From assembly GCA_003523055.1 (NCBI GenBank), contig DPHC01000002.1, forward strand, positions 392,933 to 456,932: a stretch of DNA of 64,000 nt, in the 5' to 3' direction. Each line of letters begins with the position of its first letter. Positions within the stretch are counted from its first letter, which is position 1. Shown one piece after another: positions 3,363 through 58,690 of this stretch. A program made the position numbers and the translations under genes. Origin of the DNA: Dehalococcoidia bacterium. GTDB lineage: Bacteria; Chloroflexota; Dehalococcoidia; Lucifugimonadales; UBA3495. Under the pieces are notes generated by a model. That model was not told the DNA's origin. It did not search any database and was given only the letters and a program-made list of their open reading frames with translations.

Positions 3363-3400
3363 TCATTATAATTAGTATATTCCACAGATATTAACAAAAT

Positions 3401-3559
3401 CTATCTGCCATGACACCTCTTGTATTTCTTATTACTTCCACATGGGCATTTTTCATTTCTGCCTATTTTTCTTTCCAAGCCCTTTATTCTTTTCTTTTCT
3501 TCACATTCAGTACAAGTACACGCAGCTGGATGATCTGAATACCAATTAGATCTGACCAT
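3401..3559 (-). CDS. Small SEC-C motif (zinc-binding) protein, 52 aa
   Basis: Below the ORF-track size cut-off; manual translation gives [52 protein letters not shown] followed by TAG. The C-terminal [13 protein letters not shown] matches the SecA-type SEC-C metal-binding motif. The ATG lies 9 nt after the eno stop on the same strand. Confidence 0.55.
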
Positions 3560-3568
3560 ATAAATTAC

Positions 3569-4879: not shown

Positions 4880-4884
4880 TTGAT

Positions 4885-27788: not shown

Positions 27789-27820
27789 CATAATTGACTT
27801 GTTTTCTAAATGGAGGGCAA

Positions 27821-28459
27821 ATGAATAAAAACCAAAAGAATTATAATTTCTCCATATATTTCGATTTTCGTTGACCGTTTGTATATAACGTAGCTGTATG
27901 GCTTACGCAAGTTAAAAATACTTTAGATGCGGAAATAAATATTGACTGGAAACCTTTTTCTTTGGCTCAAGCCAATAACCCCGACAACTTTAAATATTGG
28001 GAACACCCCGATGTATTAGCAGGATCAGATAAAACATTATTAGCGCATCAAGCAGGATTAGCGATAAAAAAGCAAGGCAATCAGATATTCGACTCATTTT
28101 TGATGATTTTATTGAAAAAGAGGCATGAAAGCAAACAAGATTTAACTGATGTTGCGGTAATAGAGTCAGCAGTAATCGAGTCTGGGGCTGACTTCACTAA
28201 ATACAAAGAAGAGGTATCCAATCCAGATCTACTAAAAGAAATTGGCATCAGCCATGAATTTGCTACAGAAGAATTAGGAGCATTTGGAGTTCCAACTTTT
28301 TATTTCGAATCTGGACAATCCACATTCTTAAAAATGTTTGTACCACCTGAAGATGAAAGTGCTACTATGTTCAAATCGCTGATAGAAGTCATGGGATCTT
28401 TCAACTATGTTGGTGAAATGAAACGTCCTCAACCACCATGGCCTCTAGGCATCATATAA
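27821..28459 (+). CDS. DsbA-like thioredoxin-fold protein with an in-frame TGA (27872..27874) at the active-site Cys position; candidate selenoprotein (212 aa if TGA = Sec)
   Basis: The ORF track gives only 27962..28459 (TTG start), which lacks the N-terminal strand and active site. The same frame upstream reads ATG(27821) NKNQKNYNFSIYFDFR-TGA-PFVYNVAVWLTQVKNTLDAEINIDWKPFSLAQANNP. GGAGGG lies 3 nt before the ATG. FDFx[C]Pxx[YW] is the DsbA-like active-site pattern, and the cis-Pro loop GVPTFYF is present downstream. Confidence 0.6.
27889..27907 (+). promoter_or_regulatory. Candidate SECIS-like hairpin downstream of the DsbA-like TGA
   Basis: CGUAGC-UGUAUG-GCU(U)ACG: a 6-bp stem with one bulged U. 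The apical loop starts about 20 nt after the UGA and has G at loop position 2. Short and unvalidated. Confidence 0.3.
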
Positions 28460-35278: not shown

Positions 35279-36985
35279 TCACATAACTCTTCCAAAGGAT
35301 CTGTCCAAAAAATAGTTTTTTAATTCCAGCACAGTCGGCCTACCGTGCGGGCAAGTTCTTGGATTGTCTGTACTTTTTAGCTGTTCAACTAATTCTTCCA
35401 TTTCTCTTAAACTTAGCTTTTGCCCTGCTCTAATTGAACTGTGGCAAGCGATAGTAGCGAGTATTTGATATTGAGGAATACGACCAGAAGGGTTCATCAG
35501 CTGTTCAAGTAAATCAGATATAAAATTTTCACTACTGTCCAATGAAATACCTACAGGAATAGATCTAACTAAAATAGAATTGCCACCGAAATCCTCTACA
35601 ACCATACCTTTGTTTTTTAAATATAGCTTATTAATTGCAAAAAATCCATTTTGAGCATCATTCAAAGGAAGATGTATTGGTTCCAATAGCATTTGAGAAT
35701 TATTTGCTCCAGTAATGGAATTAGAGTTCAATTGATCGAATTTAACCCTTTCATGGGCTGCATGTTGATCGATCAAGTAAATACCTTGGCTGCATTCGGC
35801 AAGGATATAAGTGGTACGGCCTTGCCCTATTACGTGTAGATGGTCTAAAATCTCCCTGAATTGACCATCATTAGGTATAGGGTTATTCTGAGCTGTTATG
35901 TCTCTTAAACCGGAATCCATGTTCAGTTGGCTATATGATTCGTTATTAATGTGTAATGTATTATTCATTCCTTGACTGGATATGGGTGCAACAGATGATA
36001 ATGCAGATATACTACCTCTAACGGCTCGTTGCAATGTAGAGAATATTTTAGACTCATACAAAAATCGAACTTCAGTCTTGGCAGGATGTGCATTCACGTC
36101 TACATCAGAATGTGGAACTATAATATTAATAACCCCAACAGGAAATCTCCGTTCTGGCATTAGTCCATGGTATGCTTCTGTAAAAGCTCTAGCCAATATT
36201 GGATTCTGTATTAACCGGTTATTAACGAAAAATATCATTGACTGACGATTAGAACGATGTAAATGAACTGGAGAAATATATCCTTCAACTACATAATCCT
36301 CCCTACTATAATCCAACAACAGCATTTGGCTAGATATTTCTTTACCCAAGCATGTTATAAGCGTTTCTTGCAAATTATTATTACCCGGACTATTAAATAT
36401 TTGTTTACCATTAATTATCAAAATTAATTTTATCTGCGGATAAGCACAAGCATAGCGTACTATCAAATTCTTGATTTGTAAGTGTTCACTTCTTAAAGAT
36501 TTTTGAAATTTTAGCCTAGCAGGTACATTTTTAAATAATTTTGTAACAATTATCTGAGTTCCTATTTGACAAGGAGTGATTTTAAGGTCTGAAATAACAC
36601 CAAAGTCATTATCAACTAAGTATCCGAATTCTTCATCCTTAACTCTACTAATTAACGAAACATGAGAAATCGATGCTATACTTGGTAGAGCTTCACCTCT
36701 GAACCCTAATGTTGCTATTGAATGCAAATCGGACTCTACAGAAATTTTGCTAGTTGCGTGATGTTCAAACGCTAGAGTCAAATATTTACGTTCGATGCCA
36801 ATGCCATTATCACTAACTTTTATAAAATTTTTCTCTCCATCTTGTATTTCAATAGTAATATGCAAAGAATCAGCATCAATAGAATTTTCAAGCAATTCTT
36901 TTATAACTGATGCAGGGCGTTCTATAACTTCTCCAGCTGCAATTTGTGTTATTAATAAAGGACTTAATTTTTTGATTTCTGACAT
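35279..36985 (-). CDS. mutL: DNA mismatch repair protein MutL
   Basis: 568 aa. GHKL ATPase motifs ELLENSIDA, DNGIGI and GFRGEAL; C-terminal CPHGRP. Confidence 0.93.
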   Translation of the reverse strand: MSEIKKLSPLLITQIAAGEVIERPASVIKELLENSIDADSLHITIEIQDGEKNFIKVSDNGIGIERKYLTLAFEHHATSKISVESDLHSIATLGFRGEALPSIASISHVSLISRVKDEEFGYLVDNDFGVISDLKITPCQIGTQIIVTKLFKNVPARLKFQKSLRSEHLQIKNLIVRYACAYPQIKLILIINGKQIFNSPGNNNLQETLITCLGKEISSQMLLLDYSREDYVVEGYISPVHLHRSNRQSMIFFVNNRLIQNPILARAFTEAYHGLMPERRFPVGVINIIVPHSDVDVNAHPAKTEVRFLYESKIFSTLQRAVRGSISALSSVAPISSQGMNNTLHINNESYSQLNMDSGLRDITAQNNPIPNDGQFREILDHLHVIGQGRTTYILAECSQGIYLIDQHAAHERVKFDQLNSNSITGANNSQMLLEPIHLPLNDAQNGFFAINKLYLKNKGMVVEDFGGNSILVRSIPVGISLDSSENFISDLLEQLMNPSGRIPQYQILATIACHSSIRAGQKLSLREMEELVEQLKSTDNPRTCPHGRPTVLELKNYFLDRSFGRVM

Positions 36986-36987
36986 GA

Positions 36988-37425
36988 CTAAAATAACGGC
37001 AATATGGTGCCCTTCGGTTTATAATGCTTATTGGTTGAAGTTCTTGTTTCAACAATATCACATATAACTTCATAAACATCATTCATAGCATTATCTTTAT
37101 TACGTTCGAAAAAGAAAGGTTGTACCCATAATCCTCCAAAATATGCTACCACTTCAGGATAATCATCTATAACAAAGTCAGGTATGATTGGAATAGCTAG
37201 ATCTTTAAATTTTTGCTCAAAATTATCCTTAGGTTTCTCATAAACATCAGTGACATATTTTTCAAGTTGATGTTCTTCAATTACTTCCCACCGTTTTCCC
37301 ATTCCTGACCATATATATATGTTATGACCGTCGTCTATTATTTTTTGAAAAACTTCTTTCGTCATATATCTAAGAGAGTTATCTAAGCCCAAAATAGTGT
37401 AATCTACATCAAAAAATACATTCAT
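36988..37425 (-). CDS. Small HAD-superfamily-like phosphatase
   Basis: 145 aa. N-terminal FFDVDYTI (DxDxT motif I). Ends 2 nt before the mutL start. Confidence 0.55.
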   Translation of the reverse strand: MNVFFDVDYTILGLDNSLRYMTKEVFQKIIDDGHNIYIWSGMGKRWEVIEEHQLEKYVTDVYEKPKDNFEQKFKDLAIPIIPDFVIDDYPEVVAYFGGLWVQPFFFERNKDNAMNDVYEVICDIVETRTSTNKHYKPKGTILPLF

Positions 37426-37620: not shown

Positions 37621-37797
37621 ATGTCAAATAGGTCAACTCATGAAGAACCAATGCCTATATACAAAATTTATTGTAAGCTAGGAGAATTACCTCAGTTAAC
37701 CAATGAACTTGTTGCCTCTTACCAACTTCTTAGTGAGTCTGGATTAATTGAAAAAAACAAGCCTTTTGTAATAGATGCTCTGACCAATGATAATTAA
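37621..37797 (+). CDS. Hypothetical 58-aa protein
   Basis: Manual translation gives MSNRSTHEEPMPIYKIYCKLGELPQLTNELVASYQLLSESGLIEKNKPFVIDALTNDN then TAA. AAGGAG lies 9 nt upstream of the ATG. No recognisable family. Confidence 0.3.
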   Translation: MSNRSTHEEPMPIYKIYCKLGELPQLTNELVASYQLLSESGLIEKNKPFVIDALTNDN

Positions 37798-37966
37798 ATT
37801 ATTCAACATAGAGCAATTAAAGTGGGAATATTTCCTATCAGGAGGAGAAGATCGGCAAAAACGGAGTCTCCCAAGATCGATTTCTATTATAGATATAAGT
37901 AAATGGAAAGAAATGACTCCATCTAACAATGTCAAATTCAATTTTTCAACAAATTGATCTATTCTA

Positions 37967-38305
37967 TTACATCAAATATTTTTTGATATCAGCTCCGGCA
38001 AAAAACTCACCTTCAAAATAAACCATTGGTCGTTTGATCAGCTTCGGTTCTTCAATCATATAATTCATCTTGGATTCAGTAGTCATTTCGTCTAAGACCA
38101 ATTCAAGTTTTTTCACAGAAGGGCTTCTAGTAGCAAATATATAATCTATATCACAATATTTTAATATATCACTCAATTCTAATATAGTTAATTTGTTTTC
38201 AAATATATCTCTCTCAAAAATTTCGTAACCACGTTGCAAAAGCATCTCTTTCGCTTTTTTACAACTGCTTCAACGCTTCCAAGTATATAAATTAGCTGTT
38301 TTCAC
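37967..38305 (-). CDS. ArsC/Spx-family thioredoxin-fold protein with an in-frame TGA (38270..38272) at the first Cys of CxxC; candidate selenoprotein with U-S-S-C (112 aa if TGA = Sec)
   Basis: The ORF track gives only 37967..38245. The same frame upstream reads GTG(38305..38303) KTANLYTWKR-TGA-SSCKKAKE-M. An in-frame TAG sits immediately upstream of the GTG. GGAGGG lies 3 nt before the GTG, and the GTG overlaps the mutS stop (GTGA). The family motif LIKRPMV is present near the C-terminus. Confidence 0.68.
38233..38265 (-). promoter_or_regulatory. Candidate bacterial SECIS hairpin downstream of the ArsC/Spx-like TGA
   Basis: On the mRNA: GUUG-UAA-AAAAGC-[GAAAGAGAU]-GCUUUU-G-CAAC, a 4-bp lower stem, an internal loop, a 6-bp upper stem and a 9-nt loop starting with G. 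It begins 4 nt after the UGA, and the loop begins about 18 nt after it. Confidence 0.45.
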
Positions 38306-40929
38306 CTACCCTCCTTATGCTGTTCATTAATATCTGTTTTTAATTTATGCAATATGTTCATTGCTTCCATTGGAGTCATATTATTCATATCCAAGTCAGA
38401 CAGTTTTTCAGATATACCGTTAAAATCCCATGAAAGTTGGAGTTGATTATTACTTAATCCGTTCTTAGTATGATTATCTACATAAAGATTGTTCTCTTCA
38501 AATTCATACAATAAATCAGATGCTCTTAATAAAATAGATTTTGGCATTCCAGCTAATTTAGCGACATGTATTCCATAACTCTTATCAGAGCTGCCTGATA
38601 TTATCCTACGTAAAAATATTATATCGCCATTTTCTTCAGACACTGCAACATGGTAATTCTTAACTCTAGGTAAATGGCTCGATAACTCCGATAATTCGTG
38701 ATAATGAGTTGCAAATAAAGTCTTGCACCCCAAAGAAGGGTTATTGTGAATATATTCAATAACAGATTGCGCTATGGAAAGCCCATCATATGTGCTAGTA
38801 CCTCTGCCTATTTCATCTAAAATCAGTAGAGATTTGCTAGTGGCATGATTTAATATCGATGCTGTTTCTAGCATTTCTACCATGAATGTTGATTGCCCAG
38901 TGGTCAAATCGTCTTGTAATCCAATTCTTGTAAAAATTCTGTCAACCAAGCAAATATCAGCAGTTGTAGCCGGTACAAAACTACCGATATGGGCCATTAG
39001 TACTATTATAGCTGTTTGCCGTATGTATGTGCTTTTGCCAGCCATGTTAGGTCCCGTTAATACAATGACGTTGGCATCACCATTAGACATATACACATCA
39101 TTAGGTACATAATTCACTAATCCAATCACTTCTTCAACAACAGGATGCCTGCCATTTTTTATAATAATACGACGTTCATCATTAATATCTGGCCTGATAT
39201 AGCTATTATCTAATCCTATTCTCGCAAAAGAACAAATCACATCTATCACACTCAATGATTGGGACAATTGAATTAATTGGTCGTGATTTTCAGAGATTTG
39301 AAAACAAATCTGCCTGTACAAATCATTTTCCAGTAATTCAATTCGTTCTCTAGAGGTTAATATCTCGAGCTCATAGTCCTTTAATTGGGCTGTTATAAAT
39401 CGTTCGGCATTCGTCAAGGTCTGTTTTCTAATATAATCGTCTGGAACTGCAGTTAAATTAGCTCTACTAACTTCTATAAAATATCCAAATACTTGATTAA
39501 ATCCTATTTTTAAATTTTTTATTTCAGTTCTATTTCTTTCAATAAGCTCTAGTTCTGATATGAATGTTTTAGTTTCATTAGCCAAAGTTCGCAAAGAATC
39601 TAGTTCTTGAGAATACCCTGGTAGTATTGTTCTACCTTCCCCTACCTTTCCTTCAACATTTTCGTCTATACCAAAAGTTACAATATTAATAATTTCTTCA
39701 TTAACTTGAATTTGTTTACAAATTTCTAATAACGACTGGTCCGGGAGTTGTTGTATTATTTCGGATAAATCTATGGCCGTAGATAAAGTATTTTTTAGGC
39801 TTAACAAGTCATTCGGAGTGGCTTTATGGTACTTTATCTTACCTGATATACGTTCTATATCTGACACTTTATTCAATAGTTCTTCTACTTTTGTTAGTGC
39901 AAATAAATCATCGGTCAATGACTCTATTCCGTTTTGTCTAAGTATGATTTCTTTTTTTTCTAATAAAGGCTGTCCAATCCATTTTTTCAACAATCTAGCC
40001 CCCATCGGAGTTTTAGTGCGATTTAACGTGGAAAATAAAGTTTTGCTGGATCCAGATAATTTAGCTGTATCAAACAATTCTAAATTAAGCCTAGTTTGAA
40101 CATCTAAATTCATGTACTTATCAATAGAATAAAATTTGGGCTTTAATAAATGATTTTTTGTTGACTGTTGAGTTTCTTGTAAATAAGACAATAATGCTCC
40201 CGATGACTGAACCACTACATCACTAAGAGATATATTTTTTAAATCCTCTCCAGTTAATTCAAGGTTTTTTATCAACACTCCATTAAAATCTAGCGAATAA
40301 TACGAGTCGTCTAATATTGTAATAAAATTATGTCGGGATGGTCCACTCTGTAGTAAATCAATATCCGATACATCTGTGATCTTGGAAATATCAGATTTCA
40401 TACTTCCAGAAATCAAAATTTCAGAAGGATTCAATCTCGCAAGTTCCATCTTACATTGATCCAAAGATAGTTTCGTAACAAAAAATTCTCCAGTAGATAT
40501 ATCCACCGTTGATAATCCTATTGCACTATCATCCTTAAACAGAGAAACTAAATAATTATTGGATTGAACATCTAAAAAATCATCTTCAAAAACAGTTCCT
40601 GGAGTAACTACTCGGACCACACCTCGTTCTACTAGGTCTTTATTCTTAGTAGCAGCAGACAATTGTTCACAAATAGCCACTTTATACCCGATTTTAACCA
40701 ATCTACTCAAATACGTATCACAGGCATGAACAGGGATGCCAGCGAGTGGAACTACTACGTTTTTACCTAAGCTCTTTCGTGTTAATGCTATGTCTAATTC
40801 TTCAGAAATAATTTTTGCATCATCATCAAAGCATTCATAAAAGTCGCCCATACGAAAAAATAATATCGAATCTTCATAAGATTTCTTGATATTAATATAT
40901 TGTTCTCTAATTGGAGTCACGTAGTTCAC
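38302..40929 (-). CDS. mutS: DNA mismatch repair protein MutS
   Basis: 875 aa. N-terminal mismatch-binding region (FFRMGDFYE), Walker A GPNMAGKST and DEIGRGTSTYDG. Confidence 0.95.
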   Translation of the reverse strand: MNYVTPIREQYINIKKSYEDSILFFRMGDFYECFDDDAKIISEELDIALTRKSLGKNVVVPLAGIPVHACDTYLSRLVKIGYKVAICEQLSAATKNKDLVERGVVRVVTPGTVFEDDFLDVQSNNYLVSLFKDDSAIGLSTVDISTGEFFVTKLSLDQCKMELARLNPSEILISGSMKSDISKITDVSDIDLLQSGPSRHNFITILDDSYYSLDFNGVLIKNLELTGEDLKNISLSDVVVQSSGALLSYLQETQQSTKNHLLKPKFYSIDKYMNLDVQTRLNLELFDTAKLSGSSKTLFSTLNRTKTPMGARLLKKWIGQPLLEKKEIILRQNGIESLTDDLFALTKVEELLNKVSDIERISGKIKYHKATPNDLLSLKNTLSTAIDLSEIIQQLPDQSLLEICKQIQVNEEIINIVTFGIDENVEGKVGEGRTILPGYSQELDSLRTLANETKTFISELELIERNRTEIKNLKIGFNQVFGYFIEVSRANLTAVPDDYIRKQTLTNAERFITAQLKDYELEILTSRERIELLENDLYRQICFQISENHDQLIQLSQSLSVIDVICSFARIGLDNSYIRPDINDERRIIIKNGRHPVVEEVIGLVNYVPNDVYMSNGDANVIVLTGPNMAGKSTYIRQTAIIVLMAHIGSFVPATTADICLVDRIFTRIGLQDDLTTGQSTFMVEMLETASILNHATSKSLLILDEIGRGTSTYDGLSIAQSVIEYIHNNPSLGCKTLFATHYHELSELSSHLPRVKNYHVAVSEENGDIIFLRRIISGSSDKSYGIHVAKLAGMPKSILLRASDLLYEFEENNLYVDNHTKNGLSNNQLQLSWDFNGISEKLSDLDMNNMTPMEAMNILHKLKTDINEQHKEGR

Positions 40930-40968: not shown

Positions 40969-41685
40969 CTATTCTTTCCAAAATCTTTCTTCAATGAAAT
41001 TCCATCCTTCTGATACTACATCTTCACGAACGTATTCAATCATACCAGGATGACCACATGCATAGACATAGGTTGATTGTTTCGAGAGTTTATTGATATT
41101 CAACTGGTCTTTAACGATGCTATTCACCCTACCAACATTGCCTAACCAGCCATCATTTCTTGAGTCATCAGGTCGGCTTATAGTGGGGATAAAATTCACC
41201 GTATTAGGAAAGTTCCGTGACAAATGAAATAATTCTTGGTCATAACACAATTCATCTTGGTAACTAGCACCCAATAAGACATAAAAAACTTTCTCTGAGC
41301 TGGAAGGTTGGTTTAAATAATCTCTTATCATACTTATGTACGGTGAAACGCCCGTCACTGTTGCAACCATTACATGGTGAGTGTACTCATTTTTCAAGAT
41401 AAATATACCTTTTGCTCTAGGTCGTAAGGAAACTTTATCTCCTAAATTTAATTTCCATATTTTAGGCGTCAATTCTCCATCAGGTACAAGTTCAATAAAA
41501 ATTTCTATCGTCTGTTCAAATGGTGCTGAAGCTATTGAATAAGCTCGTTCTATTCCATCTATACCTAGAGTGCAATACTGGCCAGGTTTAAAAGTAAATT
41601 GATTTTGTTCACATCTAAGAGTTATAACCATAAGATCTTCAGTTATTTTTTTTCTAGAAATTAACTGAGCCGTTGGAAGATTCAC
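40969..41685 (-). CDS. Ferredoxin-NADP+ reductase-type FAD/NAD(P)-binding oxidoreductase
   Basis: 238 aa. FAD motif RAYSIAS, NAD(P)-domain MVATVTGVSP and C-terminal YACGHPGM. Starts 6 nt after the NuoG/FdsA-like gene. Confidence 0.8.
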   Translation of the reverse strand: MNLPTAQLISRKKITEDLMVITLRCEQNQFTFKPGQYCTLGIDGIERAYSIASAPFEQTIEIFIELVPDGELTPKIWKLNLGDKVSLRPRAKGIFILKNEYTHHVMVATVTGVSPYISMIRDYLNQPSSSEKVFYVLLGASYQDELCYDQELFHLSRNFPNTVNFIPTISRPDDSRNDGWLGNVGRVNSIVKDQLNINKLSKQSTYVYACGHPGMIEYVREDVVSEGWNFIEERFWKE

Positions 41686-41691
41686 AGTTCT

Positions 41692-44520
41692 TTATCTCCT
41701 TTTGCTTATATTAGCAACAAGCACTTTTAATCCAGGGACATCAGACATAGGATCTATATTTTCACTATTTTGTAATTCGATCGCTAATTGCCCAAACAAA
41801 GAAGTAGTAGATAGAACACCTGAGGGAATTTTCTCATTAATTCTGACGGTGCCATTCATTTTTTGATTACTTGTTGTAACTGTAATTTTATCACCCTCAT
41901 TAATCAATAATTCTTTAGCAGAAGATACATTTAACTCAAATACATCTGGACGATGTATATAATTCTGATCACTTTCTTCTATTATTTTCATAGAGTTGCT
42001 TGAAGAGAACAAAACTCTCCCTTGGACCAACAACAAATCTGCAGTATTACAATCATTGACTTCGTTTACATTCACATCTGGAACGTACACACAAAAATGA
42101 GTTTCTACGCCTGGTGAGAATAGCTGGGAAGATCCATAAGGATTAGCGGTGCCAGCGGCAGGCCATTGCATACCATTACTTTCATAGCTAGCATATAGTT
42201 CTTGTGTAGGTTTAGGAGTATCATACCCTGATCTAAATACTAATTTTACATTTTTATCTAGAATTTCATATGAAATCCCTTCATATATATTGCACACTTC
42301 GGATATCTCGTCCATAACCGCAGATTCATTCTCAAAATTAAAACCGTCTAACGACCACAATTTTGCCAATTCGCTGGCAACCCATATTTCTGACTTGGCT
42401 TCATTGTTTTTAACAGGCATTACTTCTGAAAATTTTTGCACTCTTCTTTCTATATTTGTAAGAGTCCCAGATTTTTCAGCGAAAGTCAGTCTTGGAAGAA
42501 CCACATCTGCAATATCAGTCAATTGAGTTTCAAAACTATCTTGCACTACTAAGAAATCTAATTCTTGTAGCTGATTTGCTAAAAACCTCATCGAATCATC
42601 TGATTCAACTGGCAAATCTCCTATAACCATCATTTTTTTTATGCTTCCATCTGACACAGACACACCAAGGTTTCTAACGGGAATACCTGACTGGCTTGAT
42701 ATCTCAATTCCCCATTTATGTTTCAGTGTTTCAGCAGCTGTCTTATCTTCTACAAAACTACCTCCGGGCAATCTGTTTGGCATGCATCCCACATCTTGAG
42801 CACCTTGTTCATTAGCACCATATCGCATAGGGTATATGCCCGAACCAATTGTATTAATATTATCTGTAATTAGTGTCAAGTTAGTTAAATTTGCTACAAC
42901 ATAATCTGATATAGCATGCGAAATGGTGTCTAAGGAATATATAATTGATGCTGTATCAGATTGTGTTAACAATTGAGCGACACTCAATAAATCAGACTCG
43001 TCCACTTCTGTCGTACTGCAAATTTGAGAAAGATCTAAATTTTGGACATACAAACATAATTCATCTATATTTTTGATCGTATCGCGTAAGTTAGGAATAT
43101 CAATCAAATCATTATCAAACATCAATTTCATAATACCCAGCAATACCATATTTTCACTGCCAGGACGAGGCCTAATCCAAACATCGCTATGGCGAGTCAA
43201 TTCCACTTCTCTTACATCGATTACGATTAATTTAGCTCCGGATTTTATTGCTTTCTTTATGGGCAGAGATATGACATTTTGTTGTTCTGTAATGTTAGCG
43301 TTAAAGACTAATACACATTCAGATTTTGAAATGTCCCAAATAGATCCGGTTGCAGCCCCCATTCCTATCATTTTTTGCAAATTATCAGTCAATTCTGGGT
43401 GTATATTAGTAGATTGATCTATATTATTGGTTCCCATCTGCATCCTGACTAATTTTTGCCATATGTATAATTCTTCATTAGTGCTATCTTTAGCAGCTAG
43501 CAAAGCAAAATCCTCTTTGGAGCTTACGTTTAACTTATCTGATATTAATTTTAAAGCCTCTTCCCAGCTAACTTTTGCTAATTTTCCGTCTTTACGTATC
43601 ATTGGATGACGAATTCTTGAGGTAGAATTTACAAAATCCAGACCAAATTTCCCTCTAAAACAGGCTTGTCCATGATTTACTGGAGAATCTAATTCAGGCA
43701 CTACTCTAATCATTCGTCCAAATTCATTTAATTCAAAGTTCATCTGGCAACCAACAGGACATTGAGTACAAATAGTTTTTTTGATTTCTCGCGGTTTTTC
43801 CCATTTGTTTTCTCTTTCTACTAGGGCACCTACTGGGCACACATCTAAGCAAGCCCCACAAAATTCACAACCCGATTCTAATAAAGAAGACCCAAATGAA
43901 GTTCCTACTAATGCTCTGCCTCCTCGTTCAACAAACGTAATTGCGGAGTCTCCTCGTATTTCTTCGCAGACTCTGACACATCTTCCGCAAGTTATACATA
44001 AATTATAGTCCCTATCATAGAAAGGGTCTTTAATTTCTAGTGGAATCTCTTTATATTTATAGTCTAAATGGGATTCCAATTCCATCCCTAAATATCTCAC
44101 AGTATCTTTAAATTCACACCTTTCATTTTTGGGACAGGTTATACATCTGTCATTAACTGACACGTGCCTCAAGCAAACATCGCCTGGGCCGCAAATATCG
44201 ATACGGTGGCACGTCAAGCATCCATTTGGATGTTCTGCTATCATCATTTCTATTATGGATTTTCTAAGTTCATTTACCTCAGGAACATTATTGTTGATTA
44301 TCATTCCATCTTGAACTGGCAGTGTGCATGATGCTGGTGTTCCTCGGCCATCAACTACAGACACAACACAAGTACGACAAGCTCCAAAAGGTTTCATGCC
44401 AGGGTGATAGCACAAGTAAGGAATATATATGCCAGCGTCTATAGCGGCTTCCAATACCATTTTACCTGGTTCTGTTTTTACTTCTTGACCATCAATAGTA
44501 ATAGTTATTTCGTCTGGCAT
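41692..44520 (-). CDS. NuoG/FdsA-like Fe-S subunit with a molybdopterin-oxidoreductase-type C-terminal domain; the FDH Mo-ligand Cys/Sec appears to be absent
   Basis: 942 aa. N-terminal 2Fe-2S ferredoxin region (CYHPGMKPFGACRTC), 4Fe-4S motifs (CITCGRCVRVC, CEFCGACLDVCPVGA), MopB 4Fe-4S (CTQCPVGC...C) and a C-terminal MopB beta-barrel-like tail. The segment GTNNIDQSTNIHPEL aligns by eye with FDH GTNNVDCCARV[U/C]HGPS, placing Ile at the ligand position. Confidence 0.8.
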   Translation of the reverse strand: MPDEITITIDGQEVKTEPGKMVLEAAIDAGIYIPYLCYHPGMKPFGACRTCVVSVVDGRGTPASCTLPVQDGMIINNNVPEVNELRKSIIEMMIAEHPNGCLTCHRIDICGPGDVCLRHVSVNDRCITCPKNERCEFKDTVRYLGMELESHLDYKYKEIPLEIKDPFYDRDYNLCITCGRCVRVCEEIRGDSAITFVERGGRALVGTSFGSSLLESGCEFCGACLDVCPVGALVERENKWEKPREIKKTICTQCPVGCQMNFELNEFGRMIRVVPELDSPVNHGQACFRGKFGLDFVNSTSRIRHPMIRKDGKLAKVSWEEALKLISDKLNVSSKEDFALLAAKDSTNEELYIWQKLVRMQMGTNNIDQSTNIHPELTDNLQKMIGMGAATGSIWDISKSECVLVFNANITEQQNVISLPIKKAIKSGAKLIVIDVREVELTRHSDVWIRPRPGSENMVLLGIMKLMFDNDLIDIPNLRDTIKNIDELCLYVQNLDLSQICSTTEVDESDLLSVAQLLTQSDTASIIYSLDTISHAISDYVVANLTNLTLITDNINTIGSGIYPMRYGANEQGAQDVGCMPNRLPGGSFVEDKTAAETLKHKWGIEISSQSGIPVRNLGVSVSDGSIKKMMVIGDLPVESDDSMRFLANQLQELDFLVVQDSFETQLTDIADVVLPRLTFAEKSGTLTNIERRVQKFSEVMPVKNNEAKSEIWVASELAKLWSLDGFNFENESAVMDEISEVCNIYEGISYEILDKNVKLVFRSGYDTPKPTQELYASYESNGMQWPAAGTANPYGSSQLFSPGVETHFCVYVPDVNVNEVNDCNTADLLLVQGRVLFSSSNSMKIIEESDQNYIHRPDVFELNVSSAKELLINEGDKITVTTSNQKMNGTVRINEKIPSGVLSTTSLFGQLAIELQNSENIDPMSDVPGLKVLVANISKRR

Positions 44521-44532: not shown

Positions 44533-46254
44533 TTATCTTCTTGTACGTTTAGGAGAAAATCTTTTTTTATTGCATACTTTAGTTAGGCAAGTATGTCCAA
44601 TTATATGTTGATTAAACTCTTCGGAAAAATATTTAATGGCAGAAGCTACTGGATTAAAACCAAGCTGACCGTGGCCACACAATGAACCAGCTTGCATATT
44701 TTCTCCTATACTCCTCATAAGGTCCAAATCTTCTTCAGTTCCTTCTAAATCGCAGATACGCTCTAACACTTCTAAGAGGTGACTCATTCCCATTCGGCAC
44801 GGGAAACATTTACCGCAAGATTCATATTGGCAAAATGCTATTAGTGAACGAGTTAAATCCACAATACAAGTCCGTTCATCTGCTGCAATGATGCCTCCGG
44901 ATCCCAAAATCGCTCCAGCATTTCTAAAAGACTCGTAATCTAGGATCAGATCTATGTTATCGGCATTCAAGACTCCACCCAGCGGGCCTCCAGTTTGAAC
45001 TAACTTTAAATTCCTACCTTCTGGGATTCCTCCAGCAAGATCAAACAATATATCTTTTAAATTAAGCCCCATTGGAACTTCTATCATACCTGTTCGGTTC
45101 AGAGAGCCTGACAAACATAAAATAGCGGTACCTTTGCTTTGCTCATATCCAATTTCTGAAAACCATTGGCCTCCCTTTCTGACTATTTCAGGGACGTACG
45201 ACAAAGTTTTTACATTATTGATATTAGTTGGCTTCCCAAACACTCCTACTTGTGCAGGGAACGGTGGCCTATATCTCGGCATAGCTCGTTTCCCTTCTAT
45301 AGCTTCCATCAGTGCCGTTTCTTCTCCTGCGACGTATGAATCTCCAGTTAACGCAATTTCTAGGTCAAATGAGAAATCTGTGCCTAGTATATTTGTTCCC
45401 AATAAACCTTTTTCATATGCTTGCTTTACTGCGGTTTTAGCTCTTTCAATTGGTCCATCATGTCCATGCCTTATGAATATATATCCTCTGTTTGAATTAG
45501 TCGCATAGCCTGCAAGAGCAATGCCTTCTACGACTGTATGTGGGTCACTTTCTAATATTCCTTTATCATTAAAAGCTCCAGGGTCTCCTTCCTCGCAATT
45601 ACATAGAATATATTTATCCTTAGCAGGATTAGAGGCTAAGAAGCTCCATTTTACTCCTGTAGCAAATGCCGCTCCTCCTCTTCCTCTCAATCCAGATTCT
45701 TTTACTTCGTTGAGAGTAGACTCAGGATCCAATTCGAACAATGCCCGATTCAAAGCATAGTATCCTCCATTGGATATGTATTGATCGATATCATACGGGT
45801 CAATATTACCGGCATTCCTCAACGAGATCCGTAATTCTTTAGATTTCATCGGGTGATCTTCTAACTTAGTTACACCTTCTAATTCCATATCACCGCTATA
45901 TAAAAAAACGTGCTTATTGGGGATTTGGTTATCAATAATATGAGACTGTATAATATCCTCAAGGTTATCTTCGGATACGTTATTATAGAAAATTCTATTT
46001 CCACCTGGCATCTGAATATCTAATAAAGGTTCTGCAAAACATAAACCTATGCATCCAACTTCACTGACGTTGGCTTGGATACCTAACATCTCTAAGCAGT
46101 TGGAAATAGAATTATATATTTGCTTACTTCCTGCAGCTTCTCCACACAGAGCAGTACCTATTCTGATCCATGGTAATTCACCTTGGTTCAGGTGATTCCA
46201 TTTTTCTTGCGCCTGTGCAGATATTTTCTTAAATGAGTCAGTCTCTACTACCAC
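44533..46254 (-). CDS. NuoF/FdsB-like NADH-binding FMN / 4Fe-4S subunit with an N-terminal extension
   Basis: 573 aa. GRGGAAF occurs at about residue 190. N3-cluster cysteines lie in ESCGKCFPCR and SLCGHGQ. The roughly 120-aa N-terminal extension contains Cys residues (GTALCGEA, CIGLCFAEP). Confidence 0.88.
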   Translation of the reverse strand: MVVETDSFKKISAQAQEKWNHLNQGELPWIRIGTALCGEAAGSKQIYNSISNCLEMLGIQANVSEVGCIGLCFAEPLLDIQMPGGNRIFYNNVSEDNLEDIIQSHIIDNQIPNKHVFLYSGDMELEGVTKLEDHPMKSKELRISLRNAGNIDPYDIDQYISNGGYYALNRALFELDPESTLNEVKESGLRGRGGAAFATGVKWSFLASNPAKDKYILCNCEEGDPGAFNDKGILESDPHTVVEGIALAGYATNSNRGYIFIRHGHDGPIERAKTAVKQAYEKGLLGTNILGTDFSFDLEIALTGDSYVAGEETALMEAIEGKRAMPRYRPPFPAQVGVFGKPTNINNVKTLSYVPEIVRKGGQWFSEIGYEQSKGTAILCLSGSLNRTGMIEVPMGLNLKDILFDLAGGIPEGRNLKLVQTGGPLGGVLNADNIDLILDYESFRNAGAILGSGGIIAADERTCIVDLTRSLIAFCQYESCGKCFPCRMGMSHLLEVLERICDLEGTEEDLDLMRSIGENMQAGSLCGHGQLGFNPVASAIKYFSEEFNQHIIGHTCLTKVCNKKRFSPKRTRR

Positions 46255-46299: not shown

Positions 46300-46761
46300 T
46301 TACTTTAATCCTTCAATTTTATTTTTCAACAAGGATTTTGTAACACGCCCTATTAAATGATGATCAATCGCTACAACAGGGGCCTGCGCACATGCTCCTA
46401 AGCATGTGTTAAAGCCTAATTCTATTTCTCCATTTTGAGTTCGACCTTCTTCAGTTATATCCAAAGATTCAAAAGCTTCTTCAAAAATTTCCATAGCACC
46501 AGCAATATGACATGTCGGGCCCCAACATATTTCTATATTACACTTAGCAGGTTCTTCGAATTTGAAGTTTGGGTAGAAAGAAGCAACTGCCCACACGTCA
46601 TTTACAGTTGTATTGGGAATTTCTAAAGAAACAACTTCCATTGATTCCTTAGGTATGTAACCTATTTTATCTTGTATTGCCAATAATGATGACAATACAG
46701 TTTTGGTGGGTTGTTCTTGGCTACGAACGGCATTTGTGATAGCAGTGGTAAGCACATCCAT
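46300..46761 (-). CDS. NuoE/FdsG-like thioredoxin-like [2Fe-2S] subunit
   Basis: 153 aa. 2Fe-2S ligand pairs are CWGPTCHIAG and CLGACAQAP. Confidence 0.88.
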   Translation of the reverse strand: MDVLTTAITNAVRSQEQPTKTVLSSLLAIQDKIGYIPKESMEVVSLEIPNTTVNDVWAVASFYPNFKFEEPAKCNIEICWGPTCHIAGAMEIFEEAFESLDITEEGRTQNGEIELGFNTCLGACAQAPVVAIDHHLIGRVTKSLLKNKIEGLK

Positions 46762-48973: not shown

Positions 48974-50092
48974 TTACATTTTTGATGCCAGTTTAGATTT
49001 TTTCTTGAAGTGAGGTATTACGTATTTGTCAAAAAGTCTGAGAGTCTCCATAACTTCTTGATGAGAAACTGGCCCAACCTGGAATAATGGCATGATTTCA
49101 TCTATTCCTAAAGATTCATATTTTTCGAGGTATTTTATGCAATCATCTGGGTCACCCATACAGAATCTATCACCCTCATTCAAAAGATCCATCGATGTAA
49201 CTTCATCTTTTCGGGCGGTATCAATCTTGGTAGCTCTATCATAATGCCACTTGTAATCTTCAGGGACATCAGAAGCAGAATATCCTTCCCATACCTTTGA
49301 ATCTCTCACTTTCTGTTGATACCTGTACCAATCTATAAGTTCAGCGCTACGTTCTTTTGCCTTTTTACCATCCTCCGAACAATAAGCTACTGTGCTTCCT
49401 GAAATTTTGTTTGTGATAACTTTACTAATTGGGTTAGGAGACAAGCTAGCCTTACGGTAAATTTCAATTAATTTTTCTGTTCGGTCTATACCGATACTGG
49501 TTTGCGTTAAGCATCCTAATCCTTGAGTACCCGCTTTTTCGAATGTGAGTTCTTGAGAACAAGCTTGCCAAATGGGAGGGTGCGGGCTTTGCACTGGCTT
49601 TGGAATTACTTCTCTTTCTCCTATATTGAAGTAATTACCTTGGTATGAAAAAACTTCATCAGTCCAAGCCTTTGGAATTATATCAAGGGTTTCTTCTACG
49701 ATATTTGTAGCATCTTTCAAATCTCTATCAAATGGTAACATTTGATAAGGATATCCAGATCTGCCAATACCTACATCCACTCTACCATGGCTCAATATAT
49801 CTAACGTAGCCATTCTAACTGCAGTATGTAAAGGGTGATGTAATGGTGGCAAAACTGCAGCTATACCTAGTCTTATGTTTTGTGTTCTTTGGCTTATAGC
49901 TGCCAATGCTAAATCTGGCGCGCTCGCATGGGACCATTCTGATCTAAAATGATGTTCAACAAACCAGACCGTACTCATTCCAATTTCATCTGCGTATGAA
50001 ACTTGCTCCAACATTTGGTGATACTTCTCCGATTCACTCTCACTATTCCAAGGTTTCGGAACTTGTATTTGATAAAAAAGCCCTATATCCAT
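48974..50092 (-). CDS. LLM-class (luciferase-like) flavin-dependent oxidoreductase/monooxygenase
   Basis: 372 aa. N-terminal pattern YADEIGMSTVWFVEHHF and LDILSHGRVDVGIGRS, typical of luciferase-like monooxygenases. Confidence 0.85.
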   Translation of the reverse strand: MDIGLFYQIQVPKPWNSESESEKYHQMLEQVSYADEIGMSTVWFVEHHFRSEWSHASAPDLALAAISQRTQNIRLGIAAVLPPLHHPLHTAVRMATLDILSHGRVDVGIGRSGYPYQMLPFDRDLKDATNIVEETLDIIPKAWTDEVFSYQGNYFNIGEREVIPKPVQSPHPPIWQACSQELTFEKAGTQGLGCLTQTSIGIDRTEKLIEIYRKASLSPNPISKVITNKISGSTVAYCSEDGKKAKERSAELIDWYRYQQKVRDSKVWEGYSASDVPEDYKWHYDRATKIDTARKDEVTSMDLLNEGDRFCMGDPDDCIKYLEKYESLGIDEIMPLFQVGPVSHQEVMETLRLFDKYVIPHFKKKSKLASKM

Positions 50093-57763: not shown

Positions 57764-58690
57764 TTAATGCATTTTCGAAACTTTTGATCGTAGTTTGCCA
57801 ATTCCTTCTACTTCTAATTCAATTACATCGTCATTTTTCAACCACTTACCATGTTCTGCTCCACAGCCTCCGCCGACTGTACCTGAGCCAAAAAGATCTC
57901 CTGGATATAAAACTTCTGAATTAGAGGCATGCTCTATCATGTCGTATATACTCCAATAAATATTCCCAATATTGTTATCAGTCCATATTTCGCCATTCAC
58001 TCTAGCTGTCATACGCGCATCGGATACATTAAATTCGTCAGGCGTAACTATCCAAGGGCCCAAAGAAGTGCCAAAGTCTTTTCCTTTAGATGGCCCTAAC
58101 CCTACGCTTTGTTCTCTAAATTGCACGTCCCTTGCGCTCCAATCATTCATTATTGTAAATCCGCCTATATATCTGCTAGCTTCTTCTTTGGAAATATTAG
58201 TCCCTTCTCTACCAATCACAAATCCTAATTCAAGTTCATAGTCCATTACTTCACTGTATTCTGGCCATACTATTGGTTGTTGATGGCCGAGTAACGATCT
58301 ATGATTACCCTTATAATAGACTGGAACTTCATACCAAGCTTCTGGCACTTCAGCTCCTCTGTTTCCTCTGACTGTTTTAATATGCTGCTCAAACGCTATA
58401 AAATCTCGTAAGGAGCCTGCCTCCACCGGTGGGTAATATATTATTTCATTAAGATTAGATTTCTCACAATCTATTCCATCTAAAGAGCGTAAACTCTGAG
58501 ATAATTCTCCATCAGATTCAGTGTTAATGCGAATTAACTCAACTGCTGAATTAATAGAGAAATCGATACCTTTGTCTCTCAAGACAATCGCAGCATCTAA
58601 TATGACCTGATTCTCTAAATCTACGATCCCAACTCTAGGAAATATTTCTTTGTGAGTGTCTTTAAATCTAGCAATTTTCATACATTGCAC
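57764..58690 (-). CDS. Fumarylacetoacetate hydrolase (FAH) family protein
   Basis: 308 aa. Contains YELELGFVIG and GFTIMNDWSARD, typical FAH-fold metal-site motifs. Confidence 0.85.
   Translation of the reverse strand: MQCMKIARFKDTHKEIFPRVGIVDLENQVILDAAIVLRDKGIDFSINSAVELIRINTESDGELSQSLRSLDGIDCEKSNLNEIIYYPPVEAGSLRDFIAFEQHIKTVRGNRGAEVPEAWYEVPVYYKGNHRSLLGHQQPIVWPEYSEVMDYELELGFVIGREGTNISKEEASRYIGGFTIMNDWSARDVQFREQSVGLGPSKGKDFGTSLGPWIVTPDEFNVSDARMTARVNGEIWTDNNIGNIYWSIYDMIEHASNSEVLYPGDLFGSGTVGGGCGAEHGKWLKNDDVIELEVEGIGKLRSKVSKMH

What the first reader, a model, noticed from the sequence alone, without database searches (positions are those of the whole stretch)
37967..38305. ArsC/Spx-family gene with TGA at the first Cys of its CxxC motif: candidate UxxC selenoprotein, translationally coupled to mutS
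The reported 92-aa ORF (37967..38245) begins at an internal Met and lacks the N-terminal strand and redox motif that define this fold.

- The same frame upstream reads GTG(38305) K T A N L Y T W K R [TGA 38272..38270] S S C K K A K E M. This is LYTWKR-U-SSC-KKAKEML, which matches the family N-terminus (h-Y-x(3-4)-C-x-x-C-[RK]KA-x(3)-L) with the TGA on the first Cys.
- An in-frame TAG sits immediately upstream of the GTG, so this is the first possible start.
- GGAGGG lies 3 nt before the GTG, and the GTG overlaps the mutS stop (GTGA).
- A 4+6 bp hairpin with a G-first 9-nt loop (38233..38265) starts 4 nt after the UGA, which is the expected bacterial SECIS geometry.
- TGA is a real stop elsewhere in the window. 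nuoD ends at the conserved GEVDR-TGA, and speE, speH, mutL and mutS also end in TGA at normal lengths. This looks like site-specific recoding, not a reassigned code.

A Sec-containing Spx/ArsC-like protein wedged between mutS and mutL would link a high-reactivity redox sensor to mismatch repair.
Basis: partly seen in the sequence, partly recalled or inferred. Interest (0 to 1): 0.8.

Follow-up and report, generated by a model that had tools for sequence, protein, structure and literature searches.

The report
Selenocysteine ArsC/Spx-like protein, known family
The small redox-protein gene just after mutS does carry an in-frame UGA that almost certainly encodes selenocysteine, but this selenoprotein family was already catalogued from ocean metagenomes in 2008, so the practical gain is correcting a truncated annotation.

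Summary
On the minus strand, GTG (38305..38303) opens a 112-codon frame reading VKTANLYTWKR-TGA-SSCKKAK... The TGA (38272..38270) aligns with the first Cys of the CxxC motif of ArsC/Spx-family proteins.

- **Not an error or a reassigned code:** 14 independent assemblies carry the same TGA, and 8 of 51 window genes end in TGA.
- **Conserved:** 39 of 41 related loci from other species have TGA at exactly this position. Most are Dehalococcoidia or SAR202; a few are Syntrophales and Sulfobacillus. All 39 keep a conserved N-terminal peptide.
- **SECIS-like hairpin:** it lies 15 nt downstream of the UGA and shows compensatory changes.
- **Second case in the window:** a DsbA-like gene (27821..28459) has the same Cys/TGA signature and the same hairpin geometry, which suggests the organism decodes Sec.
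- **Not tested:** selA, selB, selD and tRNA-Sec could not be searched in the rest of the genome.
- **Already known:** the GOS selenoproteome paper (2008) lists a read 53% identical under 'Arsenate reductase 2 (UxxC)'.
- **mutS link:** adjacency to mutS is confined to this clade, so a tie to mismatch repair is not supported.

Verdict: a new member of a known kind, of low interest.

The parts
37967..38305 (-). Full-length ArsC/Spx-like selenoprotein gene: 111 sense codons including UGA = Sec12, plus the TAA stop at 37967..37969. Product is M/V-KTANLYTWKR-U-SSC-KKAKEM...KKYLM.
   Evidence: Searches give the sequence. Pfam PF03960 matches from profile position 1. Orthologues have the same N-terminal length, with the start 8 to 13 codons before U.
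38270..38272 (-). In-frame TGA, read as selenocysteine (U12). It aligns with the first Cys of CxxC, which is Cys10 of B. subtilis Spx.
   Evidence: The TGA is identical in 14 independent assemblies. Full-length homologues have Cys here. 39 of 41 orthologous loci have TGA here.
38261..38263 (-). TGT codon for Cys15, the resolving Cys of the U-S-S-C motif.
   Evidence: The residue is conserved as C in the Chloroflexota orthologues and is S in some Sulfobacillus/Bacillota orthologues.
38236..38254 (-). Conserved SECIS-like hairpin GCGAAAG(AGAUG)CUUUUGC. It has 7 bp including one G.U, starts 15 nt after the UGA, and has a loop G that is invariant in orthologues. The 'internal Met' ATG (38245..38243) lies in its loop.
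   Evidence: On alignment A3 of 38 sequences, 89.5% of cells pair, against 34 to 50% when the 3' partner is slid. Six of 8 pairs change on both sides, and 0 of 500 shuffles reach the observed values. RNAalifold finds the same helix. In the sister lineage a U-to-C change turns G.U into G-C.
38303..38305 (-). GTG start codon. It overlaps the mutS stop codon TGA (38302..38304) as GTGA and is preceded by an in-frame TAG.
38309..38314 (-). Shine-Dalgarno sequence GGAGGG, 3 nt before the GTG.
   Evidence: Only 3 of 51 window genes have a full GGAGG upstream, and two of them are the two candidate selenoprotein genes, with identical spacing.
38302..40929 (-). mutS, immediately upstream on the same strand; probably the same transcription unit.
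   Evidence: Pfam finds MutS domains I to V. The adjacency is kept in the sister lineage and in the 53%-identical relative L061.
37621..37957 (+). Two small convergent genes (37621..37797 of 58 aa, and 37787..37957 of 56 aa). They bound the 3' end of the mutS/arsC-like unit and separate it from orf145-mutL (35279..37425, minus strand).
   Evidence: All 11 substitutions against the sister lineage fall at codon position 3. The 56-aa product is 78% identical in L061. No Pfam family matches either product.
27821..28459 (+). Second candidate selenoprotein in the window, a DsbA-like protein. It is supporting evidence for Sec decoding, not part of the original finding. ATG is at 27821, TGA at 27872..27874 (motif D-F-R-U-P-F-V-Y), and a hairpin at 27889..27907 has a GUAU loop and a bulged U.
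   Evidence: Searches give the sequence and the partial Pfam match. Cys homologues read FYDFRCPFVYN, and a code-4 style 'W' translation exists. SAR202 loci keep the TGA and the hairpin. The full-length form hits PF01323 from profile position 4. It is 75% identical to GOS 'DsbA 3 UxxV' reads.

Best explanation
The gene at 37967..38305 (minus strand) encodes a 111-residue thioredoxin-fold protein of the ArsC/Spx superfamily. Its active-site motif is U12-S-S-C15. The UGA at 38272..38270 is recoded to selenocysteine by the standard bacterial route. In that route, SelB carrying Sec-tRNA(Sec) is recruited by an mRNA hairpin (38254..38236) that starts 15 nt after the UGA and lies inside the coding sequence. 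Translation starts at the GTG that overlaps the mutS stop codon, behind a strong GGAGGG site, so the gene is probably co-transcribed with mutS and may be translationally coupled to it. The protein most likely works as a selenol/thiol redox protein. Sec12 would attack an oxidised substrate and form a selenenylsulfide with Cys15, which a thioredoxin- or glutaredoxin-type reductant would then reduce.

**Shown here:** the codon, its alignment to Cys, its conservation, the covarying hairpin, and a second gene of the same kind in the same genome.

**Inferred:** actual Sec insertion, SelB binding, coupling to mutS, and the chemistry and substrate.
For: 1. **The TGA is not an error.** It is identical in 14 contigs from different samples and assemblers, across two lineages that are 91% identical.
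2. **The code is standard.** 8 of 51 genes stop at TGA at normal lengths.
3. **Cys/Sec pairing.** Full-length homologues carry C-x-x-C with the first Cys at the TGA column, for example P0043 LYWWKKCSSCRK. The position also aligns to Cys10 of Spx.
4. **Conservation of the TGA.** 39 of 41 loci found through a C-terminal peptide pattern, which is blind to the N-terminus, have TGA at this column. They also have a conserved h-Y-x-W-x-[KR] peptide and a start codon 8 to 13 codons upstream. They span Dehalococcoidia/SAR202, Syntrophales, Smithella, Sulfobacillus and other Bacillota. Two further metagenome relatives also keep it.
5. **Hairpin at a fixed distance.** 89.5% of cells pair, 6 of 8 pairs show compensatory changes, and 0 of 500 shuffles reach this. 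Slid controls give 34 to 50%. RNAalifold finds the same helix independently. Column 33 is a synonymous third position of a Leu codon, yet it tracks the Lys/Arg second position at column 23 (G-C in 20 sequences, A-U in 16). Protein coding alone does not predict that.
6. **The internal Met is not conserved.** It is Val in the sister lineage and other residues (Glu, Leu) in the orthologues inspected.
7. **A second gene of the same kind.** The DsbA-like gene has TGA opposite Cys and a hairpin at the same distance.
8. **Already listed as selenoproteins.** Both families appear in the GOS dataset, with members 53% and 75% identical. Chloroflexi tRNA-Sec genes have been reported (PMC5389517).
9. **Purifying selection.** dN/dS is 0.37 between the two lineages, and there is no change in the first 20 codons.
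Against: - No selA, selB, selD or tRNA-Sec was found. Only about 84 kb of this organism could be searched (the window plus 10 kb on each side), along with 0.6 Mb of other loci. The rest of the genome could not be reached, so the decoding machinery is inferred.
- In the window's own sequence the conserved helix is weaker than in most orthologues. It has 7 bp with one G.U, and an AGAUG loop instead of G-[G/U]-N. The single-sequence fold is not significant (z = -1.05).
- No Rfam family matches the hairpin.
- There is no direct evidence of selenium in the protein.
- The substrate is unknown, and the gene neighbourhood differs between clades.
Confidence: 0.88

Rival explanations
1. The real product is the 92-aa protein that starts at the internal Met (38245). 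The 5' stretch would be a decayed remnant, and the gene a truncated ArsC-like protein without a redox motif.
For: Gene callers and NCBI annotate it this way (P0001, 'hypothetical protein DEZ08_02645'). Many homologues in the databases are also called from just after the motif.
Against: - The Pfam domain begins at residue 7 of the long form, so the short form lacks strand 1 and the active site.
- The ATG is GTG (Val) in the sister lineage and other residues (Glu, Leu) in the orthologues inspected.
- The upstream peptide and the TGA are conserved across phyla in 39 of 41 loci.
- The truncated database entries start at different, non-homologous start codons, which is a gene-caller artefact.
- The strong GGAGGG site sits before the GTG, not before the ATG.
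Confidence: 0.04
2. The UGA is read through without the Sec machinery, for example by near-cognate Trp or Cys insertion. This would give a W/CxxC protein at low yield.
For: The Sec machinery was not found in the 84 kb available. Some gene callers translated orthologues with Trp at this site (P0003, P0087).
Against: - Those Trp translations come from contigs where several TGAs were read as W, which indicates a code-4 style call.
- A hairpin with an invariant loop G at a fixed distance, showing covariation, is what SelB-dependent recoding predicts and is not needed for leaky read-through.
- The same signature is seen in a second gene.
- Both families are established Cys/Sec families.
Confidence: 0.05
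3. The TGA is a sequencing or assembly error for TGT/TGC, or the organism reads TGA as an amino acid genome-wide.
For: None beyond prior possibility.
Against: - The same TGA appears in 14 contigs from different samples and assemblers and in 39 orthologues.
- TGA terminates 8 of 51 window genes, including MutS, MutL, NuoD, SpeE and SpeH, whose Pfam domains are complete.
Confidence: 0.01
4. The hairpin conservation is only a by-product of the conserved K-A-[KR]-x-x-L peptide. Under this view there is no functional SECIS at that place, and any Sec insertion would depend on another element.
For: The helix lies wholly in coding sequence for a conserved motif. Two columns of the helix are invariant (G25, C31). 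The shuffle control ignores relatedness between sequences (caveat).
Against: - Pairs link second and third codon positions of different codons. A synonymous Leu third position covaries with a Lys/Arg second position (G-C in 20 sequences, A-U in 16, with only 2 exceptions).
- Slid controls, which keep relatedness, fall to 34 to 50% paired.
- The unrelated DsbA-like gene has a hairpin at the same distance from its UGA.
Confidence: 0.05

Closest known systems
'Arsenate reductase 2 (UxxC)' selenoprotein family of the GOS marine selenoproteome (Zhang & Gladyshev 2008, PMC2398784). It is listed as 'Arsenate reductase-like protein, UxxC' in the reviews PMC9312934 and PMC13188914.
   Same: It has the same fold (pfam03960/cd03032), the same U-x-x-C motif at the same place, and a marine metagenomic origin. 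Dataset S1 read JCVI_READ_1318105 (MIYYTWNKUSTCKK...) is 53% identical over 103 residues. It is essentially the protein of locus L061, which also lies directly after mutS.
   Different: The window protein itself is not in the stored part of that dataset ('RUSSC' was not found). The family as listed is heterogeneous; other reads under the same heading look quite different.
Bacillus subtilis Spx (PDB 1Z3E, 3GFK, 6GHB, 7F75), a CxxC redox-sensing protein that binds RNA polymerase
   Same: It is the best solved-structure match (E = 7e-11). The TGA aligns to Cys10 and Cys15 aligns to Cys13. The RKA, TRS and LxRRP motifs are shared. The best NCBIfam model is TIGR01617, Spx/MgsR.
   Different: - The score is below the family cut-off (69.9 against 75.05).
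- There is a 2-residue deletion at Spx Asp51-Gly52. From my own knowledge, Gly52 is needed for contact with the alpha-CTD of RNA polymerase.
- The protein lacks the last ~20 residues of Spx.
- It has Sec instead of Cys.
- It is found in Chloroflexota rather than Firmicutes.
NCBIfam NF041106 'ArsC family (seleno)protein'
   Same: It is an ArsC-fold family that NCBI annotates as containing selenoproteins with an N-terminal U/C.
   Different: The window protein scores 21.5 bits against a cut-off of 85. Seven Sec-containing orthologues also fail. This clade has no dedicated NCBI selenoprotein model, which explains the truncated annotation.
Glutaredoxin-dependent arsenate reductase ArsC (TIGR00014; plasmid R773 type) and the GOS 'Arsenate reductase 1 (UxxS)' selenoproteins
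   Same: It has the same superfamily fold and a nucleophile at the same N-terminal position.
   Different: The motif is UxxC, not C/UxxS. TIGR00014 scores 26.9 against a cut-off of 106. No arsenic-resistance genes lie nearby.
Bacterial SECIS elements such as that of E. coli fdhF: a SelB-binding hairpin just 3' of the UGA, with G/U in the apical loop (from my own knowledge)
   Same: It is a hairpin within the coding sequence, 15 nt after the UGA, with an invariant loop G followed by G or U in most orthologues. The DsbA-like gene's hairpin even has a GU-first loop and a bulged U.
   Different: No sequence similarity and no Rfam match. SelB binding has not been tested.

Membership tests
ArsC/Spx superfamily (Pfam PF03960) | Profile match above the curated cut-off that covers the N-terminal strand and active site | tested here: met
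   51.5 bits against a cut-off of 24. Residues 7-105 match profile positions 1-71 of 79, with U replaced by C.
Bacterial selenoprotein | In-frame UGA aligned with a redox-active Cys in homologues | tested here: met
   Full-length homologues have C-x-x-C at that column. The UGA aligns to Spx Cys10.
Bacterial selenoprotein | UGA and flanking coding sequence conserved in orthologues of other species | tested here: met
   39 of 41 loci have the UGA and a conserved N-terminal peptide. L061 and L062 do as well.
Bacterial selenoprotein | SECIS-type hairpin immediately downstream of the UGA | tested here: met
   An 8-bp helix is conserved: 89.5% of cells pair, 6 of 8 pairs show compensatory changes, and 0 of 500 shuffles reach this. 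RNAalifold finds it too. The window copy has 7 bp at 38254..38236. Function has not been tested.
Bacterial selenoprotein | Genome encodes selA, selB, selD and tRNA-Sec | not testable with these tools
   None was found in the window, its 10-kb extensions or any held locus, but only about 84 kb of this genome was reachable. A second Cys/UGA gene in the window is indirect support.
Bacterial selenoprotein | Selenium demonstrated in the polypeptide | not testable with these tools
   This needs 75Se labelling or mass spectrometry.
GOS 'Arsenate reductase 2 (UxxC)' selenoprotein family | Sequence similarity to a catalogued member, with U at the same position | tested here: met
   53% identity over 103 residues (E = 5e-43) to JCVI_READ_1318105, with U aligned.
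Spx/MgsR regulators (TIGR01617) | Score at or above the curated cut-off | tested here: not met
   69.9 bits against a cut-off of 75.05. Orthologues score 58.7 to 79.7, and only one passes.
Spx/MgsR regulators (TIGR01617) | Gly52 loop and C-terminal extension of Spx | tested here: not met
   A 2-residue gap falls at Spx D51-G52. The protein ends at about Spx residue 112 of 131. The functional importance of these features comes from my own knowledge.
Spx/MgsR regulators (TIGR01617) | Binding to the alpha-CTD of RNA polymerase | not testable with these tools
   This needs an experiment.
NF041106 ArsC family (seleno)protein | Score at or above the curated cut-off | tested here: not met
   21.5 bits against a cut-off of 85.
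Arsenate reductase ArsC (TIGR00014) | Score at or above the curated cut-off, and ars gene context | tested here: not met
   26.9 bits against a cut-off of 106.05. The neighbours are mutS, two small ORFs, orf145 and mutL.

The most novel reading that the evidence does not exclude
In this Dehalococcoidia clade the Sec-containing Spx-like protein is made from the mutS message by stop/start coupling. The arrangement is kept in the window, in its sister lineage, and in a relative whose protein is only 53% identical. The protein could act as a selenol redox switch that tunes or protects mismatch repair under oxidative stress. More broadly, it could be a selenium-dependent, Spx-like regulator outside the Firmicutes.
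Probability: 0.06. Interest if true: 0.6.

Novelty: new member of a known kind. Interest (0 to 1): 0.2.

Why it matters
The main value is in annotation.

- **This gene:** public databases call it as a 92-aa hypothetical protein that lacks its active site.
- **The family:** about half of the homologues I read are truncated in the same way, or translated with Trp at the Sec position. No NCBIfam selenoprotein model covers this clade.
- **The organism:** together with the DsbA-like gene 10 kb away, the gene indicates that this low-GC aquatic Dehalococcoidia lineage uses selenium. That bears on trace-element ecology.

It does not reveal a new mechanism. ArsC-like UxxC selenoproteins have been catalogued since 2008.

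Tried and rejected
- **Fold of the window sequence alone:** it is not significant, and its register is not conserved. I replaced it with the comparative helix.
- **Rfam scans:** neither the locus (E-value mode) nor the whole window (gathering mode) gave a SECIS or tRNA-Sec hit.
- **tRNA search:** ARAGORN on the window and 42 loci found no tRNA-Sec.
- **Sec machinery proteins:** tblastn with E. coli SelA, SelB and SelD against everything held (0.69 Mb) found nothing. Extending the window by 10 kb on each side showed no sel genes.
- **SelD search in the large protein database:** I did not run it. Only the best 120 hits are listed, and those would all be enterobacterial.
- **Procedural failures:** The first alignment was too divergent for the locus scan.
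- **Metagenome scan with the single protein:** it returned only one locus, from the sister lineage.
- **Conserved synteny with mutS/mutL:** rejected for orthologues from other species.
- **Promoter and terminator scan around the gene:** uninformative.
- **Literature:** a search on SAR202 plus selenocysteine gave nothing useful, and Peng et al. 2016 has no mention of Chloroflexi, Dehalococcoidia or ArsC.
- **Family assignments:** Spx, NF041106 and ArsC memberships were tested and not met.
Full report
**1. What is in the sequence.**

Reading the minus strand, the order of features is as follows.
- GGAGGG lies at 38314..38309.
- TAG follows it at 38308..38306.
- GTG follows at 38305..38303. It overlaps the mutS stop codon TGA (38304..38302) as GTGA.
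- The frame then reads K T A N L Y T W K R, TGA (38272..38270), S S C K K A K E M ..., and ends at TAA (37969..37967).

The mechanical ORF list reports only the 92 codons from the internal ATG, 37967..38245. With the TGA read as Cys, the 112-residue product matches Pfam ArsC PF03960 from the first profile position (1.3e-13, 51.5 bits against a cut-off of 24).

**2. It is neither an error nor a changed genetic code.**

The truncated 92-aa product occurs in public data as P0001, annotated by NCBI as 'hypothetical protein DEZ08_02645 [Dehalococcoidia bacterium]'. It is seen on 31 contigs of up to 581 kb. A variant that is 91% identical, P0002, also exists. I fetched 14 contigs from different samples and assemblers, and all carry the same TGA and the same 5' region.

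In the window, 8 of 51 long ORFs end in TGA, and the next in-frame stop follows 3 to 37 codons later. They include MutS, MutL, NuoD, SpeE and SpeH, identified by Pfam. The organism therefore uses TGA as a stop, and any recoding here is site-specific.

**3. Comparative evidence.**

A search of 1.8 billion representative proteins gave 84 relatives. Among the 41 sequences I read:
- Full-length proteins of about 115 aa carry C-x-x-C with the first Cys at the TGA column. Examples are P0043 LYWWKKCSSCRK and P0004 LYWYASCSQCRD (alignment A1).
- About half start within a few residues after the motif, at non-homologous ATG or GTG codons.
- Two show Trp at the column.

This mixture is typical of a family whose UGA-containing members are mis-called by gene finders.

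I then scanned one genome per species for the C-terminal peptide EP[RK]LIKRP[LMI]. This pattern is blind to the N-terminus. It returned 41 loci, and 39 of them have TGA at exactly the first-Cys position. In each, a start codon lies 8 to 13 codons before the TGA, and a conserved h-Y-x-W-x-[KR] peptide sits between the two. The loci are mostly Dehalococcoidia, SAR202 and other Chloroflexota, but also Syntrophales, Smithella, Sulfobacillus and other Bacillota. Some of the last group have U-T-T-S instead of U-x-x-C.

Two short metagenome contigs add further cases. L062 confirms that the 'W' in P0003 is a TGA. L061 reads MIYYTWNK-TGA-STCKK.

The window's 'internal Met' is Val in the sister lineage and other residues (Glu, Leu) in the orthologues inspected. 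The idea that the protein truly starts there fails.

Between the two close lineages, dN/dS is 0.37. None of the 16 substitutions falls in the first 20 codons.

**4. The recoding signal.**

On an alignment of 38 orthologous stretches starting at the TGA (A3), that register is not conserved. Only 59.6% of cells pair, and 437 of 500 shuffles do as well.

A different helix is conserved: columns 19-26 pair with columns 30-37.
- 89.5% of cells pair, against 34 to 50% when the 3' partners are slid by 1 to 3 columns.
- Six of 8 pairs change on both sides.
- 0 of 500 shuffles reach the observed pairing or covariation score.
- RNAalifold predicts the same helix independently.

The helix lies in coding sequence, so protein conservation could in principle mimic it. 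However, the pairs join second and third positions of different codons. The synonymous third position of a Leu codon (column 33) tracks the Lys/Arg second position at column 23, with G-C in 20 sequences, A-U in 16, and 2 exceptions.

In the window the helix is GCGAAAG / CUUUUGC at 38254..38236. Its loop is AGAUG, which contains the internal ATG, and it starts 15 nt after the UGA. In the sister lineage a U-to-C change converts its G.U pair into G-C. The loop G at column 27 is invariant, and G or U usually follows it.

From my own knowledge of bacterial SECIS elements (E. coli fdhF, and the bSECISearch model), this geometry and a G early in the loop are what SelB-dependent recoding uses. No Rfam family matches the hairpin, which is usual for bacterial SECIS elements.

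**5. Does this organism decode Sec?**

I could not search its genome. The window, 10 kb beyond each end, and every other locus held (0.69 Mb) contain no selA, selB, selD or tRNA-Sec. Since only about 84 kb of this organism was reachable, that result says little.

The window does hold a second gene with the same signature.
- At 27821..28459 (plus strand) the sequence reads GGAGGG-CAA-ATG, then MNKNQKNYNFSIYFDFR-TGA(27872..27874)-PFVYNVAVWL....
- The table-11 ORF matches only the C-terminal half of the Pfam DSBA domain. The long form matches from profile position 4.
- Homologues of 210 aa read FYDFRCPFVYN, and one was translated with W.
- SAR202 loci keep the TGA.
- A hairpin at 27889..27907, with a GUAU loop and a bulged U, starts 14 to 15 nt after the UGA. 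It shows compensatory differences from the SAR202 versions.

These two genes, and one other, are the only ones of 51 in the window with a full GGAGG site, and in both it lies at the same spacing from the start codon. Chloroflexi tRNA-Sec genes have been described (PMC5389517). I take all this as good indirect evidence for the Sec trait, but it is not proof.

**6. What the protein is.**

The closest solved structure is B. subtilis Spx (E = 7e-11). The TGA aligns with Cys10 and Cys15 aligns with Cys13. The best NCBIfam model is TIGR01617 (Spx/MgsR), at 69.9 bits against a cut-off of 75.05.

The other models score far below their cut-offs:
- ArsC arsenate reductase: 26.9 against 106.
- NF041106 'ArsC family (seleno)protein': 21.5 against 85.

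Seven Sec-containing orthologues behave the same way.

Compared with Spx, the protein has a two-residue gap at Asp51-Gly52 and lacks the last ~20 residues. I therefore do not file it as an Spx regulator. The best-supported reading is a small selenol/thiol oxidoreductase or redox switch that cycles through a Sec12-Cys15 selenenylsulfide. This is inferred from the fold and the motif, and the substrate is unknown.

**7. Gene context.**

mutS lies directly upstream in three cases: the window, its sister lineage, and L061, where the ArsC-like protein is about half identical to the window's and mutS ends about 25 nt before its ATG.

None of the 38 Sec-containing orthologues from other species is next to mutS or mutL. 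In 15 SAR202-type loci the neighbours are a homoserine dehydrogenase upstream and a short-chain dehydrogenase downstream. In 12 Sulfobacillus/Bacillota loci a Fur-family gene lies upstream.

Downstream of the window gene, two small plus-strand ORFs (37621..37797 and 37787..37957) converge on it. All 11 substitutions against the sister lineage fall at codon position 3, so these are real genes. They separate the mutS/arsC-like unit from orf145-mutL.

The GTGA overlap and the strong ribosome-binding site make coupling to mutS plausible. A functional tie to mismatch repair is not supported beyond this clade.

**8. Comparison with what is known.**

ArsC-like selenoproteins were reported in bacterial genomes in 2006 (PMC1794560). 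The GOS marine selenoproteome of 2008 tabulates two types: 'Arsenate reductase 1, pfam03960, UxxS' with 77 sequences, and 'Arsenate reductase 2, cd03032, UxxC' with 42 sequences and 238 Cys homologues (PMC2398784). Both types appear in the reviews of 2022 and 2026.

Dataset S1 of the GOS paper lists, under 'Arsenate reductase 2 UxxC', the read MIYYTWNKUSTCKKTRELLLQNNF... It is 53% identical to the window protein and essentially identical to L061.

The same file lists, under 'DsbA 3 UXXV', reads that are 75% identical to the window's second candidate. Both genes are therefore members of catalogued selenoprotein families.

**9. Verdict.**

- **Observation:** confirmed.
- **Core interpretation (UxxC selenoprotein):** supported at about 0.88, pending the Sec machinery.
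- **Hairpin:** the drawn register is wrong, and I have relocated it.
- **Mismatch-repair link:** not supported.
- **Novelty:** a new member of a known kind. The interest is low, and the value lies in correcting annotation and in flagging selenium use by this Dehalococcoidia lineage.

Noticed in passing
window 27821..28459 (+); TGA at 27872..27874; hairpin 27889..27907: This is a second candidate selenoprotein, a DsbA-like protein with the motif D-F-R-U-P-F-V-Y. It is annotated in databases as a truncated 165 to 174 aa protein. Homologues have Cys at the position, SAR202 orthologues keep the TGA, and a hairpin with a GU-first loop and a bulged U lies at the same distance from the UGA as in the ArsC-like gene. 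It is 75% identical to GOS 'DsbA 3 (UxxV)' reads.
   Followed up: yes
window 37621..37797 (+) and 37787..37957 (+): These two small overlapping ORFs (58 and 56 aa) converge on the ArsC-like gene and match no Pfam family. Against the sister lineage, all 11 substitutions fall at third codon positions and both proteins are 100% identical. The 56-aa product is 78% identical in L061, so it is better conserved than the ArsC-like protein. They appear to be real genes of unknown function.
   Followed up: partly
window 38309..38314 (-), 27812..27817 (+), and upstream of 48974..50092 (-): Only three of 51 genes have a full GGAGG Shine-Dalgarno site. Two of them are the two candidate selenoprotein genes, both as GGAGGG followed by 3 nt and the start codon. 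This may be compensation for inefficient Sec insertion, or it may be chance.
   Followed up: no
proteins P0003, P0037, P0087 and about 20 truncated entries among P0005-P0048; locus L062: Public protein collections hold many members of both families either cut off just after the Sec codon or translated with Trp at it. In L062, three TGAs in one 'protein' were read as W. No NCBIfam selenoprotein model reaches its cut-off on this ArsC/Spx-like clade.
   Followed up: partly
L040, L042, L044-L052, L054 (Sulfobacillus and other Bacillota): In this group the Sec-containing orthologue always follows a Fur-family regulator gene, and MoeA and MobB genes lie downstream on the other strand. Several members have U-T-T-S instead of U-x-x-C. 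This hints at a redox or metal-stress role in that clade.
   Followed up: partly
L043 (Sphaerobacteraceae MAG), match at 6001..6300; mutL at 3364..5112: One of the two homologues without a TGA at the motif, reading C-T-S-C, lies about 0.9 kb downstream of mutL. It is the only locus from another species with a mismatch-repair gene nearby.
   Followed up: no
window 41692..44520 (-) with 44533..46254, 46300..46761 and 40969..41685: This is a formate-dehydrogenase-like molybdopterin subunit of 942 aa, with NuoF-like, NuoE-like and FNR-like partners. The gene is an uninterrupted ORF, so it has no in-frame TGA in an organism that seems to use Sec elsewhere. I did not check which residue occupies the usual Sec/Cys position.
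   Followed up: no
L057 5302..6233 compared with window 57764..58690: The FAA-hydrolase gene is called as two pieces (220 and 99 aa) in one metagenome contig, but is intact (305 to 308 aa) in the window and in L058. This is probably a frameshift or an assembly difference.
   Followed up: no
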